NCBI GenBank assembly: GCA_964016885.1
Contig: OZ024750.1
Coordinates: 1,488,001-1,552,000 of the forward strand
Direction: 5' to 3'
Length of the DNA: 64,000 bases
DNA from: Eledone cirrhosa
Lineage: Eukaryota
This document shows, in pieces, positions 7,641 to 63,492 of this stretch. Below the pieces are notes generated by a model that made no database searches, was not told the origin of the DNA, and saw only the letters and a program-made list of their open reading frames with translations. How positions within the stretch are numbered: the first letter of the stretch is position 1; every line of letters begins with the position of its first letter. The position numbers were made by a program, and so were the translations under genes.

Positions 7641-9572
<1,932 letters not shown>

Positions 9573-35072: not shown

Positions 35073-35076
<4 letters not shown>

Positions 35077-35382
35077 AGCGAGTAGGACCCCGACGGCTGA
35101 GCTCAAGCCGGAATAGCCGAGCTTCTCAAGGGGTAATTCCATATATGGTAAAAGTGATTGTCACAAGGATTGGTAAAAACTTTTGACCAATCCTTGTGAC
35201 AATCACTTTTACCATATATGGAATTACCCCTTGAGAAGCTCGGCTATTCAAATACCAGGATAAACATTTTCATTTAGTCCAGAATTAGGAACTCGTTCCT
35301 ATTACCCACTCTACTACCCTAAGTATTGAGTACTTTGGTGTGTTATGGTCCACCTGGTTCCTTACCACATTTCCTCCGTTAT
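35073..35382 (+). mobile_element. Family X element with 64-bp perfect hairpin (35111-35249) holding the HHR 5' half
   Basis: ACCCC-TTGAGAA-GCTCGGCTATTC at ~35226-35249. Same tail as the other X copies. TA flanks. Confidence 0.85.
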
Positions 35383-46769: not shown

Positions 46770-46800
<31 letters not shown>

Positions 46801-46804
<4 letters not shown>

Positions 46805-46860
46805 AACCAGTAAGACCCCGACAGCTGAGCTCAAGCCGTTTCGACGGCTAATTCTGGACC

Positions 46861-46904
<44 letters not shown>

Positions 46905-46977
46905 CGAAGGAATTGTGGTAAGGAACCAGAAGGATCATAACACACCAGAGTACTCAATACTTAGGGTAGTAGAGTGG

Positions 46978-46978
<1 letters not shown>
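46801..46978 (-). mobile_element. Family X element, two segments in permuted order separated by TA
   Basis: 46801-46860 (TAGGAACC..CTGGAC) precedes 46901-46978 (ATAACGAAGG..GAGTGG), the reverse of their order at 7911 and 58408. Confidence 0.85.
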
Positions 46979-47071
<93 letters not shown>

Positions 47072-50288: not shown

Positions 50289-53200
50289 GGGTATGATATT
50301 AAACTACATCCAGTGGCAAGGCACCAGTTCGGGAGTTCAGGAGATGTGGGGAATGTGGAGTTACCCCTTAGTTGTCATGACTCCCAGGTCTGCCCTGGCC
50401 CGGGGTGGTAGTACCTGTTAGGGCTCCATTTATGGGTTAAATAACTACCTTATTCGAGTGACGCCGGTAAGGTATTGTCAGCCATTGAAAAGAAATATGG
50501 AGAGTCGATCTAACAGCACTAGGGTTAGAGCCCCTACTTACACTGTCAAGGAGCAGCCTGGTCGTTATGACTCTGCTGGCTTAGAGCCACAGAGAGGGCC
50601 AGTGGATGATGGATCAGCTGTCTCTGAGACAAATATAAAGAATGCAGTTTTGTCCTGCAGAAGAGCCATCCAAATGGGAACTTTGAATGTGAGGACTATT
50701 CGAACGCTGGAGAAGAGAGAGGAGTTGGGACATCTGTTCGAGGAGAGTGGTATACAGATACTTGCGATCCAAGAACACAGGATTCTACACGATGAGCCCG
50801 TGACGAGTGTGATGATCGGGAGGAAGAGCCAGCTCATCACTACATCGGCAGTGAAGAACACAACAAATGCTGCAGTAGGAGGAGTGGGTTTTGTGTTCAG
50901 TGCAAAAACCAATCTGTTGGTGAGGGAAATAATGCCTATCTCCCCGCGAGTGTTGAGGGTGACCTTCAATGGAAACCCAAGACTGACAGTCATCTCAGCC
51001 TATAGTCCAACCGAGGGGGACAGTGATGTGAATGCGGAGGAGTTCCATGAGGAGGTGTGTAGAGCTGTCAACACCACTCAGGCACACAATATCCTGCTTG
51101 TTTTGGGGGACTTCAATGCACATCTGAGTAAGGAGGGCAGTGAAGATCCTTGCTGGTACTTCCATAACAACACCAACCGAAATGGAAGACTACTGAGAGA
51201 CACCCTGCTGGAGGCGAACTTGATGGCGACCAACCTAAGGTTTAGGAAAAATCTGGGGAAGATGTGGACCTACATCTCAGATATGCACCTGTCCAAGTCC
51301 CAGATTGATTTCATTCTGGTGAGGAAAAAGTGGCGGAATAGTGTTCTGAGCACTGAACCATACAGCTATTTCAGTACACTGGGTAGTGACCACCGGCTTG
51401 TTATGAGTGAGGTCCGCGTGAGCTTAAGAAAGAGCAAGGCTCAGCCCCGGAGAACAATCTATGACTGGGGAGCTTTCAAGGAAGATGATAATCTACAGGA
51501 GAGGTTCACAGTGGAAGTGAGAAACAGGTTTAGTGCTCTGTGTGGAGAGTCAGAGGAGAGAGAGATTGGATGGACTGAGGAGAGTGTGACGAGGAGGTAC
51601 GGGCACTTCACCAATGCAGTGGCGGAAGCAAGTGAAACCCTGGTGCCGAGGAAAAAGAACAAAGGGAAGCACGTCAGCTCTGCAAACCCAAAAGTGTGTG
51701 CAGCCAGAGAACACCTGAAAGCTGTCAGGGACCAATTCTATGCTGATCCTACGGAGGAGAGGATGGAGACTGTGGAGGTGATGAGGGAAGAGCTCTGTAC
51801 CGCTTACACTGAGGTCAGAGAGGAGGCACTGATAGAGAAGATCAGAAGTGTGGAGAGAGCGGTTGACAGATCTGGATGTAAGGAGAGCTGGATGATCATC
51901 AACGAGATCACAGGGAGGAAGAGAAGGTGTTCGAGTCAGATCCAGGGAACGGGGCCCGAGGATAGGAAGAGGAAATGGCTAGACCATTTTAGGACCCTAC
52001 TAGGATAGCCACCCTCCACAGCCCAGAGCACTGGGGAGATCAGGCGGCTGTTTGAGGAACTGGATGTTGAGACAGAGCCCTTCACCAGAGAGGAGCTTCA
52101 GAGAGCCAAGAAGAAGATCAAGGAGGGCAAGGCTCATGGAGAAGATGGAGTGGCATCAGAGGTGATGAAGAGGTGTGATATTGATGATATCATCCTGGGG
52201 TTCTGTAACGGGGCACTGGAGAAAGGAGTTGCCCCGAATCAGTGGAGGATCAGTAACATCGTCCCAGTGCCAAAGAAGGGAGATCTCTCTAACACCAACA
52301 ACTACCGGGGGATCTCACTGATGTCACTTGTGGCAAAGACCCTCAACAGGATGATTCTTAACAGGATCCAGCCTGAGATGGAGAAGAAGCTCAGGGACAA
52401 CCAGAACGGCTTCAGAGAGGATAGATCAACCACCAGTCACATCCTGATGCTGAGGAGGATATTAGAGGGAGCTAGAGCAAAGTGCCTTCCTGCGGTCATG
52501 GTTTTCATTGACTTTAGGAAGGCCTTTGATTCTGTGGACCGTTACTGCCTGATGAAGATCTTACAGGCTTATGGAATCCCCAAGAGGATAGTGGACCTGA
52601 TATCACTGCTCTACACCAACACCAAAGCCCAAGTCATTACACCTGATGGGATGACAGAGTTCTTTGAGATACTGGCTGGAGTGCTCCAGGGAGATACATT
52701 GGCTCCCTACCTTTTTATCATCGTAGTGGACTATTGTATGCGCCTTGCACTGGAGAAACACCAGGACTCTGGCTTTACTGTAGCACCGGCTCAGAGCAGG
52801 AGAGTTAGGGCGAAAAAGGTATCGGATGCTGAATTTGCCGACGACATAGTTTTGGTGACAAATACAGTGAAGGAGGCAGAGGATTTGATGCGGGAGGTTG
52901 AGACTGTGTCGATGAGTGTGGGGCTGAGAATGAATGAGACTAAAACAAAATATCTGGTAGAGAATGTTGAGAAGCCAGAGGGGATCACTAATGTAGGCGG
53001 GAAGCCGCTGGAATTGGTTGAGGACTTCCTGTATTTGGGAGCAAAGATTGGGAATACGGAAGATGATGTGGTTGAGAGGAAGAGCAAGGCCTGGGCGGCG
53101 TGCCACAGCTTGAGATCGGTGTGGAAGTCGGACCTTCGTAGAGACCTGAAAGTCCGCCTCTTCATTGCTGTAGTGGGGTCTGTGCTGCTGTATGGGTCTG

Positions 53201-53606
53201 AGACTTGGACACTGACCAAGAAACTCACTCAGATGGTGGATGGGTGCTCAGCACGAGAATGCTGAGGATGGCTCTGAACATTAATTAGTATACACTGAGG
53301 ATGAAAAACTCAGAGCTGTATAGGAGCATCCCAAAAGTCAGCTCAAAAGTGACACAGAGGAGACTGAGGTTGGCTGGACATGCTCACCGACATCCAGAGT
53401 TGACATTGCACTCAGTTCTCCTTTTGGAGCCCCTACATGGACACACTAGAAGAGGAAGACCAAGGTTAACATATGTTGATGCCCTAAGGACAGACACTGG
53501 TCTGTTGGAGATGCAGGATATGGCAGCGATAATGAGGGACAGAGACAGCTGGAGAGAACTCGTCCATGGATCTCGGGAATTTTACCCGCCTTAGATGTAT
53601 GTATGT
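50283..53606 (+). mobile_element. Near full-length RTE-clade LINE inserted in (TA)n
   Basis: GC-richer 3.3-kb island with a ~175-nt 5' UTR, a single APE-RT reading frame, an (ATGT)n tail and TA repeats on both sides. Confidence 0.93.
50458..53594 (+). pseudogene. APE endonuclease-reverse transcriptase ORF with three lesions
   Basis: APE motifs TLNVRT, QEHR, AYSPT, GDFNAH, IDFIL, SDHRL. RT motifs NYRGISL, QNGFR, FIDFRKAFDSV, GVLQGDTLAPYLF, FADD. In-frame TAG at 52006-52008, frameshift at ~53248, TAG at ~53287. Confidence 0.93.
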
Positions 53607-55957: not shown

Positions 55958-57646
55958 TCTACCTGGAGTTGCGACCGATAGATAGAACTAGCAACTGGAA
56001 AGACCGACGAAAACATTGTTTCCTCGGTCCGATTTGACGAAAGTCGATCGATCCTTTGGTGTGTGTGTGTAAAGAAAAATATGAGTTGTTAATGCATTAT
56101 TTCTAATCTAATTGGTCTCTTTAAAGTGTCAACTATTCTCAGAATGCAACGATGGAAACAGTATTTGATACTATGTTGATCAACAGGATTTTCAAGAGGC
56201 TAATGTTAAACGAAATTAATCCATCCGTTGACTCATACATTAGTAATTCGCTCGCATACAATTCTAACAAGTGCAGATTCATTTTCTAGCAGAGCAACAG
56301 GCTGAAGTTGATGTAGTGGTTAACAGCATACTTCATATTGATTTGCCCTTAGCTTCCATTAATGAATAAGCTAAATCTTAGCGGTTCTCCTGCTGCTCAG
56401 ATATGTTTAGGATTTGGTACAAACTCACTAAATTTATCAGCTTGTGTTGACATGTATTACATATATTATTTAATTTTGAGGCAAATTGCTTACTGTTTTC
56501 CATCTCTAATTTCCCACTTTTATGTACTTAATTGAGGAGAGTAAGTGCTGCGGCCATGATATGTTTGTAGAGAATTTAAGACTGGTGTAAAGAAAAACGA
56601 GAAAAATCTACCAATCGTACTACTTGAACTGACAAACTATCAGAAGGCTTAAATTCGGTTATTACAGTCGCCCACATTTTATTAATATTTATTTATTTCA
56701 GGATTTAGTTTGGCTTTCATCACACTTTCTTTTGTATTTTAACATCCATCTTGTCTAGTTGCATATTTTCTAAAATAATTCTTCCCTCATCCTTAATCTT
56801 CCAAATCCAGCTGTCAGTTAGACATAGCTTCAATGTAGACATTAATACCAGCATAACGTCTATAATCCGAAGCTGTTACAATATGAGGTAACAGATTTCC
56901 ATAAATATTTATTACATATATTAAAACTAACTACCCAGAAGCAACTAACTGTTAAAGGCTTTGTCAATTATATCTTTATAGAAACAAATTTAGGATTAGG
57001 GACAGTGCACAGATTTTGCTGTGTCCCGAATGATGCGGTGATGCTCGGCTTGAGAAATGTGTAGGTATACGTAAAATGCATGGAAAGAAAAGGGAGATTT
57101 TCAGAGAGTTGCTGTTGTGTTAATATATGCTAATCATTGACACCTCTGATTATGAAACGTCAAGCAACTGCTTGATTAAATATGCTGAGATAATTTGCAA
57201 ATATGACAGCAAAAATAAACTTACTTCTATGATGCCTGTGTCCAGAAAATATATACAGATGCTATATATGCAAAACTATAGGCGTATATACGCGTCTATT
57301 TGAAAATAACATTAATTGATTCTGAAAAATAACTTGAAATTTGTGAAGTACTCGGGGATTTGGGAAATAAATATGAAGGCGAACATATTTGATTGAAGAA
57401 CCTAATTCACAATGGATAAACATGTCAATATTTCTCTGAATACTTGAGAAATTTCAGTAAAATGTTCAATTAGTTTTCAACTCGAAAGCTAACTCATATA
57501 TTTGCATCAAATGTATATCGAAAAGGACAAAAAGGACAAGGTATTTAATGAGTTCACGAAGAAACTAATAGTTGAAAAAACAAACGCGTTTATATGATGT
57601 ATGTGTATGTTTGCATGTAGATAGCATGTAAATATATATATATATA

Positions 57647-57971
<325 letters not shown>

Positions 57972-58407: not shown

Positions 58408-58582
58408 ATAACGAAGGAAATGTGGTAAGGAACCGGGTGGACCATAACGCACCAAAATACTCAATACTTAGGGTAGTAGAGTGGGTAATAGGAACGAGTA
58501 GGACCCCGACGGCTGAGCTCAAGCCGTTTCGACGACTAATTCTGGAGTCCAGAATTAGCCGTCGGGGTCCTACTCGTTCCTA
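58408..58582 (-). mobile_element. Family X element with internally deleted fold-back arm
   Basis: Turns at TCTGGA-g-TCCAGA. The arm is deleted between AGCCGTC direct repeats. TA flanks. Confidence 0.88.
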
Positions 58583-58592
58583 TATATATATA

Positions 58593-61948: not shown

Positions 61949-62902
61949 AAATCTATCACCAAATTTAAATTCTTGTAATATGCCAATTTAATATCTACAA
62001 TTCCTGTTAAACACCGGATATCTGTTGCCACGTGACACAGGATGTAGTAGGTTTTTTCTTCGGAATACTTTCTACACTCATGTTTATAATTAAGATTTTC
62101 ACTTCATGTCGAAGTGTCGATTTCCATTCTAATCAACTCATCGAAGCTGATGTCGCAAACTGGCTCCGAACTCCGGCTTTTATTTTGTTGTGTAGAATCC
62201 GCATGAATTACGATTAATTTCTGAAGGCATTTAATTATATTCAGCTCGCTTCGCAAAGCTTTACAATTTGCGCAATAAAATGTCTTAATGAGATCAAAGA
62301 CAACCATATACAAGGGTTTATATTGCTTATGGTATCTCTGTCTCTTCTGCGGCTTCTGCGCCTTGTGTGTCTAAAACCAGATAAGAACTTAGGTAGGTCA
62401 TTAGGAAAGTATGGCTTAGTGGGATGCATCAACCGAGCCGGATAGCTCATTAATTCATTAATTTGGGTGCTACACTTTTACACTAGTTTTCCCGGTGATA
62501 TAAAAAACTAACTGCTTCATTCGATTATCCAAATATGTCCACTTATATAAAAAAAATAAAAAAATCTGCTTTATATTGCGAGGCTAAATCTTTAGTCAGC
62601 GAAATATATGTATCACACAGTAACATGTTAAAAATATATAAGTGGATTAGATGGGGCTTCAGTATATGTGTATTATACATTTACATTTATGTGCGTGTAT
62701 ACATACATACTTATACATACATGCACACACATACACACATAAACACACACATACATACATACAATAGAATAATATATATGCACGATAGACGATTGTTTTT
62801 TATTCATACAATGCAACTAACAAGTTTCTTCAGCTACAAATATAAGAAAGAACATCATTATGTGACGCTGCAAAGAGAAAAACGATTATCTTATATTATA
62901 GG

Positions 62903-63492
62903 CTATAGCAACTGAGAAGCGACGCCAGTGTAGTAGTCTATAGCAACAGAGAAGCGACGCTAGTGTAGTAGTCTATAGCAACAGAGAAGCGACGCCAGTG
63001 TAGTAGTCTATAGCAACAGAGAAGCGATGCCAGTGTAGTAGTCTATAGCAACAGAGAAGCTATGCCAGTGTAGTAGTCTATAGCAACAGAGAAGCGACGC
63101 CAGTGTAGTAGTCTATAGCAACAGAGAAGCGACGCCAGTGTAGTAGTCTATAGCAACAGAGAAGCGACGCCAGTGTAGTAGTCTATAGCAACAGAGAAGC
63201 GATGCCAGTGTAGTAGTCTATAGCAACAGAGAAGCTATGCCAGTGTAGTAGTCTATAGCAACAGAGAAGCAACGCCAGTGTAGTAGTCTATAGCAACAGA
63301 GAAGCGACGCCAGTGTAGTAGTCTATAGCAACAGAGAAGCGACGCCAGTGTAGTAGTCTATAGCAACAGAGAAGCGACGCCAGTGTAGTAGTCTATAGCA
63401 ACAGAGAAGCGACGCCAGTGTAGTAGTCTATAGCAACAGAGAAGCGACGCCAGTGTAGTAGTCTATAGCAACAGAGAAGCGACGCCAGTGTA
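62903..63492. repeat. 35-bp minisatellite, ~17 units
   Basis: Unit CTATAGCAACAGAGAAGCGACGCCAGTGTAGTAGT, head to tail with no spacers. Confidence 0.97.

What the first reader, a model, noticed from the sequence alone, without database searches (positions are those of the whole stretch)
35073..35382. Family X hides a split U3:A8 hammerhead recoverable only by merging copies
This copy supplies ACCCC-TTGAGAA-GCTCGGCTATTC. The copy at 8113-8160 supplies GAATTAGCCGTC-GAAAC-GGCT-tgagctc-AGCT-GTC-GGGGT, with variants at 46801, 57647 and 58408. Joined, they give stem I ACCCC/GGGGT, core UUGAGAA (C3:G8 swapped to U3:A8), a long stem II (CGGCTA/TAGCCG), a 6-bp stem III and a GUC site. In the 35-kb copy each hairpin arm has lost a different part, and no copy in the window is intact. 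This may reflect selection against, or recombinational loss of, the active ribozyme (inference).
Basis: partly seen in the sequence, partly recalled or inferred. Interest (0 to 1): 0.82.

Follow-up and report, generated by a model that had tools for sequence, protein, structure and literature searches.

The report
Penelope ribozyme straddling likely transcript start
The "split" hammerhead ribozyme is whole in thousands of copies of a Penelope-type jumping gene; most copies lack its first half, likely because the element's RNA starts inside the ribozyme, and a pile-up of copy ends at the predicted cut site suggests that it cuts in living cells.

Summary
Family X is the 3' end (pseudo-LTR) of a Hydra-clade Penelope-like retrotransposon (RT plus C-terminal GIY-YIG, (TA)n targets). 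U3:A8 is already known from Penelope hammerheads. It is not fixed here: U-A 5,224, C·A 1,715, plus a small U·G lineage. Loss of the first half is real but looks mechanical, not selective. There are about 66,000 3' halves against about 7,000 5' halves, with a sharp edge at an initiator-like TTAGT 29-31 nt behind a TATA-like box inside loop II. This likely marks the transcript start, where reverse transcription runs off. A second, minor pile-up of ends lies exactly at GUC↓ and is stronger in U3-only lineages (12/55 vs 8/94, p=0.027), which suggests cleavage in vivo. No RNA data were available, and covariation is absent. The boldest open reading is that the capped 5' half-ribozyme is completed by the 3'-UTR half of the same RNA.

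The parts
35073..35110 (-). Left (inverted) arm: short 3' end, stem I 3' strand, GUC site (35088-35097) and most of stem III, joined directly to the 5' half by a 49-nt internal deletion
35111..35134 (-). Left arm 5' half of the hammerhead: stem I 5' strand, UUGAGAA core, stem II 5' strand
35135..35225 (.). Element 3' UTR upstream of the ribozyme, present on both arms; fold-back pivot near 35180 (5'-truncation point)
   Evidence: 35111-35249 is a 139-bp palindrome at 97.8%
35226..35249 (+). Right arm 5' half of the hammerhead (U3...A8 core at 35231-35237)
35245..35252 (+). TATA-like box overlapping stem II / loop II, 31 nt before the likely +1 (inferred)
   Evidence: spacing 29-31 nt in nearly all long arms
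35274..35278 (+). Initiator-like TTAGT; likely transcript start at A 35276 (inferred from insertion ends)
35279..35290 (+). Start of the stem II 3' strand, then an internal deletion that removes GAAA, stem III and the cut site
35291..35382 (+). Short end (35295-35302) and 80-nt tail ending at (TA)n; the two alternative 3' ends of the family
   Evidence: 54 short, 46 long of 100 arms
7911..8174 (.). Mini hairpin insertion: tail arm 7911-8053 (-) and short arm 8112-8174 (+); both stop at TTAGTCC
46800..46983 (-). Mini insertion: short arm 46800-46859 stopping at GTCC, plus a tail-only piece 46901-46983
57646..57844 (.). Mini hairpin insertion of an older lineage; pivot at 57704/57705
58408..58583 (.). 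Mini hairpin insertion; pivot at 58546/58547; the right arm lost stem III between two 8-nt direct repeats

Best explanation
Family X is the pseudo-LTR of a Hydra-clade Penelope-like retrotransposon whose hammerhead is whole in thousands of copies, and about nine in ten copies lack its first half, likely because transcription starts inside loop II and reverse transcription runs off that RNA end. Steps: (shown) long copies have ORF - about 1.2 kb 3' UTR - hammerhead - two alternative 3' ends, in tandem or inverted units inserted in (TA)n. (Shown) short copies end sharply at TT-AGTCC in loop II. (Inferred) that A is the capped Pol II start, set by a TATA-like box 29-31 nt upstream and an initiator. 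(Inferred, by analogy with the anole element PAc) RT primes at the two tail sites about 65 and 145 nt downstream of the start, so the default product is a 65-145 nt cDNA that folds back into a mini hairpin. (Inferred) long copies need a read-through, tandem or circular template that carries the whole ribozyme. (Inferred) a few per cent of templates were cut at GUC, leaving copies that begin exactly at GGGGU. The window's copies are four run-off products and one longer copy with two private deletions.
For: Element identity: ORF with RWR, DKT, CxCx5C, CxxC...E, N...CxH and (TA)n flanks fits the Hydra definition; by eye it is collinear with Hydra-1_Obim; 1,092 relatives at E<=1e-30 among 8,000 scored. 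Cliff: 66,110 3' halves against 5,224+1,715+99 5' halves. 77 of 93 arms anchored on the 3' half end within 22 nt upstream of it and 10 reach 60 nt. Loss per base is about 0.041 across loop II against 0.00074 upstream, where 0 of 30 arms end within 60 nt. (TA)n-joined ends, 53 distinct loci in the first 100 of 3,611 overlapping rows, by eye: AGTCC 21, with a T/TT/TTC extension 8, GTCC 15, TCC/CCAG 9, none reaching CATTTAG. The non-T base before AGTCC is G 5, C 2, A 1, cap-like as for LINE-1 (PMC4859970). TATA-to-A spacing is 29-31 nt and the motif varies only as TTAGT/TCAGT. Contig depth drops about 17-fold across the same place and the top inversion joint is at +2. Cut site: direct (TA)n junctions in the first 100 of 207 rows, by eye: 17 exactly at the cut, 4 at -1, 3 at -3, 2 at +1. 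By lineage marker 12/55 vs 8/94, p=0.027; counting filler-joined ends, 24/55 vs 16/94, p=0.0006. The marker with the stronger peak goes with U3 in 55 of 56 arms; the other goes with C3 in 20, U3 in 14, other or unread in 9. PLE promoters lie in the pLTR (PMC2377424, PMC8557442) and RT starts internally at the tail sites (PMC11167929).
Against: No RNA evidence: the start and the cut are read only from DNA ends. The extra-G signal is weak (5 of 8, p=0.09). The TATA-like box is poor in some lineages (TATTCAAA, TATTCATA) and overlaps stem II, so its conservation has another possible cause. The +1 lies in the 3' strand of a weak distal hairpin, so an RT stall is not excluded. The stems show no covariation beyond shuffles (1 pair with a two-sided change; 458 of 500 shuffles as high). 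The hammerhead fold is a minority in the predicted ensemble (0.27, 0.12, 0.05, 0.008, 0.0009 in the 5 of 9 loci that the script could parse). In a C3-enriched set, ends at the cut site were about as common among hairpin junctions (about 18 of 39 non-indel rows, vs about 39 of 76; by eye), which does not fit a simple core effect, though many are GG microhomologies and the marker is polluted by CpG decay. The same lineage split also shifts another junction (-24: 1/55 vs 21/94), so the lineages differ in more than cleavage. Junction counts are by eye and come mostly from the first contigs.
Confidence: 0.7

Rival explanations
1. The cliff is a strong RT stall or template switch in the folded stem II / distal hairpin of a full-length template, and the minor peak at the cut site is a pause after the G-run or at the base of stem III. 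No start site and no cleavage are involved.
For: A distal hairpin whose 3' strand holds the boundary is predicted in most lineages. A stall with about 10% read-through gives the same counts. Many ends at the cut site use GG microhomology.
Against: The modal end lies 3-4 nt inside the weak hairpin, after RT has passed the stronger stem II. It is the same in lineages with a strong and a weak hairpin. Initiator/TATA spacing and the extra G fit a capped end. The G-run is identical in all lineages, yet the cut-site peak differs between them.
Confidence: 0.17
2. The short hairpins are a non-autonomous, SINE-like derivative that is transcribed from its own retained internal promoter and amplified in trans by the Penelope protein.
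For: Short copies outnumber long ones about 9:1 and share one 5' boundary. Non-autonomous PLE derivatives are known (PMC8557442 passages; bioRxiv 10.64898/2026.07.22.740005, abstract and first part).
Against: Pivot points and spacers differ from copy to copy, as expected for independent insertion events. Short copies carry the same downstream lineage markers as long ones. They lack the 5' UTR/ORF region that binds the protein in PAc (PMC11167929). This rival still needs the start at the same A.
Confidence: 0.08
3. One reading: copies with an active ribozyme are selected against or lose it by recombination.
For: About 90% of arms lack the 5' half. The 35-kb copy has deletions in both arms, and the 58.5-kb arm lost stem III between direct repeats. 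C3·A8 lineages, probably weaker cutters, did amplify.
Against: Internal deletions occur in only 2 of 100 arms. Core columns vary no more than flanks apart from lineage changes. The youngest, most uniform lineages are U3:A8 with the best predicted fold. A single sharp boundary is not what removal by selection gives. Two other close-spaced inverted pairs (L088, L129) are whole in both arms.
Confidence: 0.05

Closest known systems
Hydra-clade Penelope-like elements, e.g. Hydra-1_Obim (Craig et al. 2021, PMC8557442; section 11, passages and supplement parts 1-2 seen)
   Same: RT plus C-terminal GIY-YIG, RW(K/R), DKT, CxCx5C, CxxC and CxH, (TA)n targets, tandem/inverted units with an optional tail, and a type I hammerhead near the 3' end.
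   Different: A separate family with another ribozyme sequence. All Hydra-clade hammerheads in supplement S2 have C3...G8, short loop II and a 3-4 bp stem III; this one has U3:A8 (also C·A, U·G), a loop II of about 40 nt and a 5-6 bp stem III. Longer 3' UTR (about 1.2 kb) and an 80-nt tail. About 66,000 arms.
U3-A8 minimal hammerheads of Schistosoma Cercyon PLEs (Cervera and de la Pena 2014, PMC4209133; first two of four parts read)
   Same: U3-A8 core in a pLTR, long stem II, short stem I, extra nucleotide near 9/10.1, palindromic loop III, most motifs in truncated copies.
   Different: Those lack a stable stem III and need a dimer; this one has a full stem III. No start site inside the ribozyme was reported in the parts read.
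PAc / Poseidon_Ac mechanism (Frangieh et al. 2024, PMC11167929; first two of four parts read)
   Same: Two internal RT start sites define the tail; AT-rich targets; the hammerhead lies just upstream of the RT start sites.
   Different: In PAc the ribozyme overlaps the ORF start, needed protein to cleave, was dispensable for insertion in vitro, and no RNA-seq reads ended at its cut. Here DNA ends pile up at the cut, and the likely start lies inside the ribozyme.
D. virilis Penelope promoter (PMC2377424, passages) and L1Tc Pr77/HDV dual promoter-ribozyme (PMC3383444, abstract)
   Same: A promoter in the pLTR, or one sequence acting as both promoter and ribozyme.
   Different: Penelope's promoter is TATA-less and starts upstream of an intron whose end meets helix I, so its RNA holds the whole ribozyme. 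L1Tc's ribozyme lies wholly downstream of +1. Here +1 likely splits the ribozyme.
Discontinuous Clec2 hammerhead (as described in review PMC2950038, passages)
   Same: Enzyme and substrate halves meet across a long distance in one mRNA.
   Different: Clec2 halves are in normal order with an insertion in a loop. In the novel case here the substrate half is at the capped 5' end and the enzyme half about 3.5 kb downstream (permuted order, open at stems I and II).

Membership tests
Hydra-clade Penelope-like element | Single ORF with RT and C-terminal GIY-YIG endonuclease | tested here: met
   RT (YRDDG) followed by VIY...YIG; most copies have frameshifts or stops; Pfam gave 0 families for 2 of 2 proteins
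Hydra-clade Penelope-like element | RWK motif, DKG changed to DKT | tested here: met
   RLRWRT and HSDKTG; definition
Hydra-clade Penelope-like element | CxCx5C linker, CxxC and CxH around E/N, no CCHH | tested here: met
   CNCPDRSIC, CNLCSEE, N...ACKH; absence of CCHH judged by eye
Hydra-clade Penelope-like element | (TA)n insertion, tandem/inverted pLTRs, optional tail | tested here: met
   (same tail-to-5'UTR junction in the 4 tandem loci found)
Hydra-clade Penelope-like element | RT phylogeny places it in the clade | not tested
   Named Hydra proteins were seen only in a supplement and compared by eye; no tree with them was built
Hydra-clade Penelope-like element | Usually under 3 kb, canonical C3-G8 hammerhead | tested here: not met
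   Unit is about 3.5 kb; core is U-A, C·A or U·G. These are typical, not defining, traits
Type I hammerhead ribozyme | Core YUGAnRA, GAAA, UH around three stems; G10.1-C11.1 and A15.1-U16.1 | tested here: met
   G10.1-C11.1 and A15.1-U16.1 in 19 of 19 rows; position 7 and the bulged base vary freely by lineage
Type I hammerhead ribozyme | 3:8 Watson-Crick pair | tested here: inconclusive
   U-A 5,224, C·A 1,715, non-A at 8 in 99; U·G forms a clade of 3 rows, 100/100
Type I hammerhead ribozyme | Covariation in stems | tested here: not met
   only one-sided G-U changes, no excess over shuffles; the family is young (90% column identity), so the test has little power
Type I hammerhead ribozyme | Rfam hammerhead model match | tested here: not met
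   0 hits at gathering score in the window; no hammerhead among 11 weak hits on 4 whole copies at E<=5; the long loop II and U3:A8 may explain this
Type I hammerhead ribozyme | Self-cleavage after H17 | not testable with these tools
   Indirect only: insertion ends pile up at GUC
Pol II core promoter (TATA + initiator) | Capped RNA ends at the initiator A about 30 nt after TATA | not testable with these tools
   No RNA run listed; DNA-end proxy; initiator consensus recalled, not from a call

The most novel reading that the evidence does not exclude
The element's mRNA begins inside its own hammerhead, so its capped 5' end is only the substrate half, masked by an inner hairpin. The enzyme half from the 3' UTR of the same or another transcript invades it and forms a permuted, two-piece hammerhead that cuts off the capped 45-nt leader. 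With the cis cut at the 3' ribozyme this gives unit-length ends that can be joined into the circular template needed for pLTR-ORF-pLTR copies. The ribozyme would then be truly split, at the RNA level. Supporting: the two-strand fold gives the hammerhead for 1 of 5 loci (the youngest U3:A8 lineage) and near-hammerhead folds for 2 more; ends pile up at the cut. Not excluded: the cut templates came from read-through RNAs with a whole ribozyme.
Probability: 0.2. Interest if true: 0.8.

Novelty: new variant of a known kind. Interest (0 to 1): 0.55.

Why it matters
What the hammerheads of Penelope-like elements do is an open question: they cleave poorly in vitro, were dispensable for insertion in the one reconstituted system, and no cut RNA ends were seen there in vivo (PMC4209133, PMC8557442, PMC11167929). 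This family has about 66,000 insertion ends that record the 5' ends of its RNA templates. They point to a start site inside the ribozyme and to a minor template class cut exactly at GUC, with natural lineages (U-A, C·A, U·G) as built-in controls. That gives a cheap way to test cleavage in vivo, explains how a Penelope element can flood a genome with MITE-like mini hairpins, and can be repeated on any high-copy PLE. Paper searches with the terms (open-access library only; listings and the passages named) showed no report of a start site inside a PLE hammerhead. The U3:A8 core and the element class are not new.

Tried and rejected
Rfam: no hammerhead hit in the window or in 4 whole copies. Pfam: no family for 2 ORFs. 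Free folding of 4 whole copies: z about -0.3 and MFE not a hammerhead, so folding energy alone gives no support. RNA data: no RNA holder listed; the 4 runs laid are contigs of unknown type from one study and may be the assembly's own sample, so they are not independent and say nothing on expression. One search was one base off register and caught only 15 variants; useful by accident. The first tree lost most C3 rows to my filter and was replaced (106 rows, core columns left out, bootstrap not settled, midpoint root only), so the order U·G, U-A, C·A, U-A is a drawing, not a tested order. In one search the script's label was one off (the A is 15 nt upstream) and the class at 19 nt is inflated by chance matches to fold-back arms. 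The test of cut site against three other junctions (p=0.0001) is inflated by the lineage-specific -24 peak and is not relied on. An alternative hammerhead cutting at the GUC in loop II was rejected by eye (no stem I or III). Naiad was rejected (endonuclease is C-terminal). Earlier notes of this scan: nothing found. Supplements of bioRxiv 10.64898/2026.07.22.740005 and the supplementary figures of PMC4209133 and PMC11167929 were not seen and may bear on novelty.

Full report
Observation. The quoted motifs are all present. The copy at 35073-35382 is an inverted pair: 35111-35249 is a 139-bp palindrome. The left arm jumps from the stem II 5' strand straight to stem III, and the right arm jumps from the start of the stem II 3' strand to the short 3' end. 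Four more insertions (7911-8174, 46800-46983, 57646-57844, 58408-58583) hold only the 3' half. All five sit in (TA)n. Rfam finds nothing in the window.

Are the halves ever contiguous? Yes. The window lies in a 3.0-Gb animal assembly, where a pattern spanning both halves has 505 exact matches and the reversed control has 0. A 16-mer just upstream of the ribozyme has 5,170 matches. I read the first 100: 97 run through the ribozyme, 2 have internal deletions and 1 is cut off (by eye). A strict pattern passes 57 with U3, 10 with C3 and 1 with A3; 32 fail, mostly by single substitutions.

What the family is. [quoted passage not shown] The motifs RWR, DKT, CxCx5C, CxxC and CxH, and the (TA)n targets, match the definition of the Hydra clade of Penelope-like elements (PMC8557442 section 11). 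By eye the protein is collinear with Hydra-1_Obim but clearly another family. The best database relatives are 50-53% identical and unnamed. Hammerheads are known in this clade, all with C3...G8 in supplement S2. U3-A8 is published for Schistosoma PLE hammerheads (PMC4209133) and as a natural, active covariation (PMC3088659 section 8).

The core is not fixed. Exact 20-mer counts: U3..A8 5,224, C3..A8 1,715, any base but A at 8 in 99. C3 is linked to its own loop II markers and clusters on a tree far beyond shuffles; three U3·G8 rows form a clade (rough support, midpoint root). All lineages keep pyrimidine-3/purine-8. Other lineage-level changes fall at position 7, the bulged base, loop II, or turn G-C into G-U. 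There is no two-sided covariation beyond shuffles. Two CGGCU and two AGCCG tracts allow a rival fold that buries GAAA in a hairpin loop; the predicted share of the hammerhead fold ranges from 0.27 (young U3:A8 lineage) to 0.0009 (C3·A8) in the 5 of 9 loci parsed.

Why most copies lack the first half. The 3'-half 16-mer has 66,110 matches, about nine times the 5' half (patterns differ in length, so this is rough). Of 93 arms read from that list, 77 end within 22 nt upstream of the anchor, 6 between 24 and 53 nt, and 10 are long. Loss per base is about 0.041 across loop II against 0.00074 further upstream, where none of 30 arms ends in the first 60 nt. Ends joined straight to (TA)n avoid fold-back ambiguity: of 53 loci, 21 begin at AGTCC, 8 have a short T-rich extension, 15 begin at GTCC, 9 a base or two later, and none reaches CATTTAG (by eye). 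The seven short arms in the window that hold the 3' half stop there too. The boundary is an initiator-like TTAGT/TCAGT (consensus recalled) with a TATA-like box 29-31 nt upstream in nearly all long arms. An extra G precedes AGTCC in 5 of 8 informative cases (p=0.09), as cap copying gives in LINE-1 (PMC4859970, passages). PLE promoters lie in the pLTR. In the anole element RT starts at two internal sites that define the tail, and shortening the template's 5' end shortens the product (PMC11167929). Here the tail is the 5' UTR: it joins the ORF leader at one fixed junction in the 4 tandem loci found. The simplest reading is that RT starts 65 or 145 nt from the cap and runs off it. An RT stall in the distal hairpin remains the main rival.

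A trace of cleavage. Ends near the predicted cut pile up exactly at GUC↓GGGG: about 39 of the first 100 of 1,756 rows, 14 free of microhomology against 2-5 at neighbouring bases, with about 24 rows being indels (by eye; 30 loci shown in context). Direct (TA)n junctions give 17 at the cut, 4 at -1, 3 at -3, 2 at +1, 5 at -8, 5 at -13 and 10 at -24 (first 100 of 207). The peak is lineage-dependent although the G-run is the same: 12 of 55 rows with the U3-linked marker against 8 of 94 with the mixed marker (p=0.027), or 24/55 vs 16/94 with filler-joined ends (p=0.0006). Against this, a C3-enriched set of hairpin junctions shows no drop, and the lineages also differ at -24. Cut templates would be only a few per cent of all; most templates were uncut, which fits an RNA that starts with half a ribozyme.

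Mechanism and boldest case. Shown: element class, whole ribozyme in long copies, sharp boundary, minor peak at GUC. Inferred: start site, run-off, cleavage. Long copies need a template on which ORF, ribozyme, tail and protein-binding leader follow each other: a tandem read-through RNA or a circle. If the RNA starts in loop II, its 5' cut needs the enzyme half from elsewhere. Co-folding the 24-nt 3'-UTR strand with the start-site RNA gives the hammerhead for L050 and near-hammerhead folds for L047 and L138, but the rival fold for L004 and L053. That permuted two-piece ribozyme is the novel case (probability 0.2).

Verdict. This is a new variant of a known kind: a Hydra-clade Penelope element whose hammerhead likely overlaps its own core promoter, with DNA ends that make cleavage in vivo testable. 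Interest 0.55.

Noticed in passing
window 50422-53594 (+): Long ORFs (528 and 418 aa, one stop between them, then a broken end) that read like an APE-endonuclease/RT LINE of the RTE type (family name recalled).
   Followed up: no
window 62899-63492: 35-bp tandem array, 17 copies, 97% identical.
   Followed up: no
G000: (TA)n-joined ends at position -24 (C11.1, base of stem II and loop of the rival hairpin) are common in one lineage group (21/94) and rare in the other (1/55); unexplained.
   Followed up: partly
L188, L190, L204: An older lineage with a U3·G8 core, its own upstream sequence and its own loop II; most of the G8 matches look like it.
   Followed up: partly
window 8094-8112; L197, L202: Poly-T runs directly before the loop II boundary, as if RT added or slipped on A residues at the end of the template.
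   Followed up: no
window 35281-35302: The right-arm deletion junction creates a short hairpin that repeats the short 3' end in reverse, suggesting a template switch during integration.
   Followed up: partly
L031:1012-1495, L033:7038-7442, L035:900-1335: Other large imperfect palindromes (400-500 bp) next to family X copies; not examined.
   Followed up: no
L010, L022, L170 flanks: A different repeat, itself a perfect fold-back in L170, recurs beside family X ends; it may be another (TA)n-targeting Penelope family.
   Followed up: no
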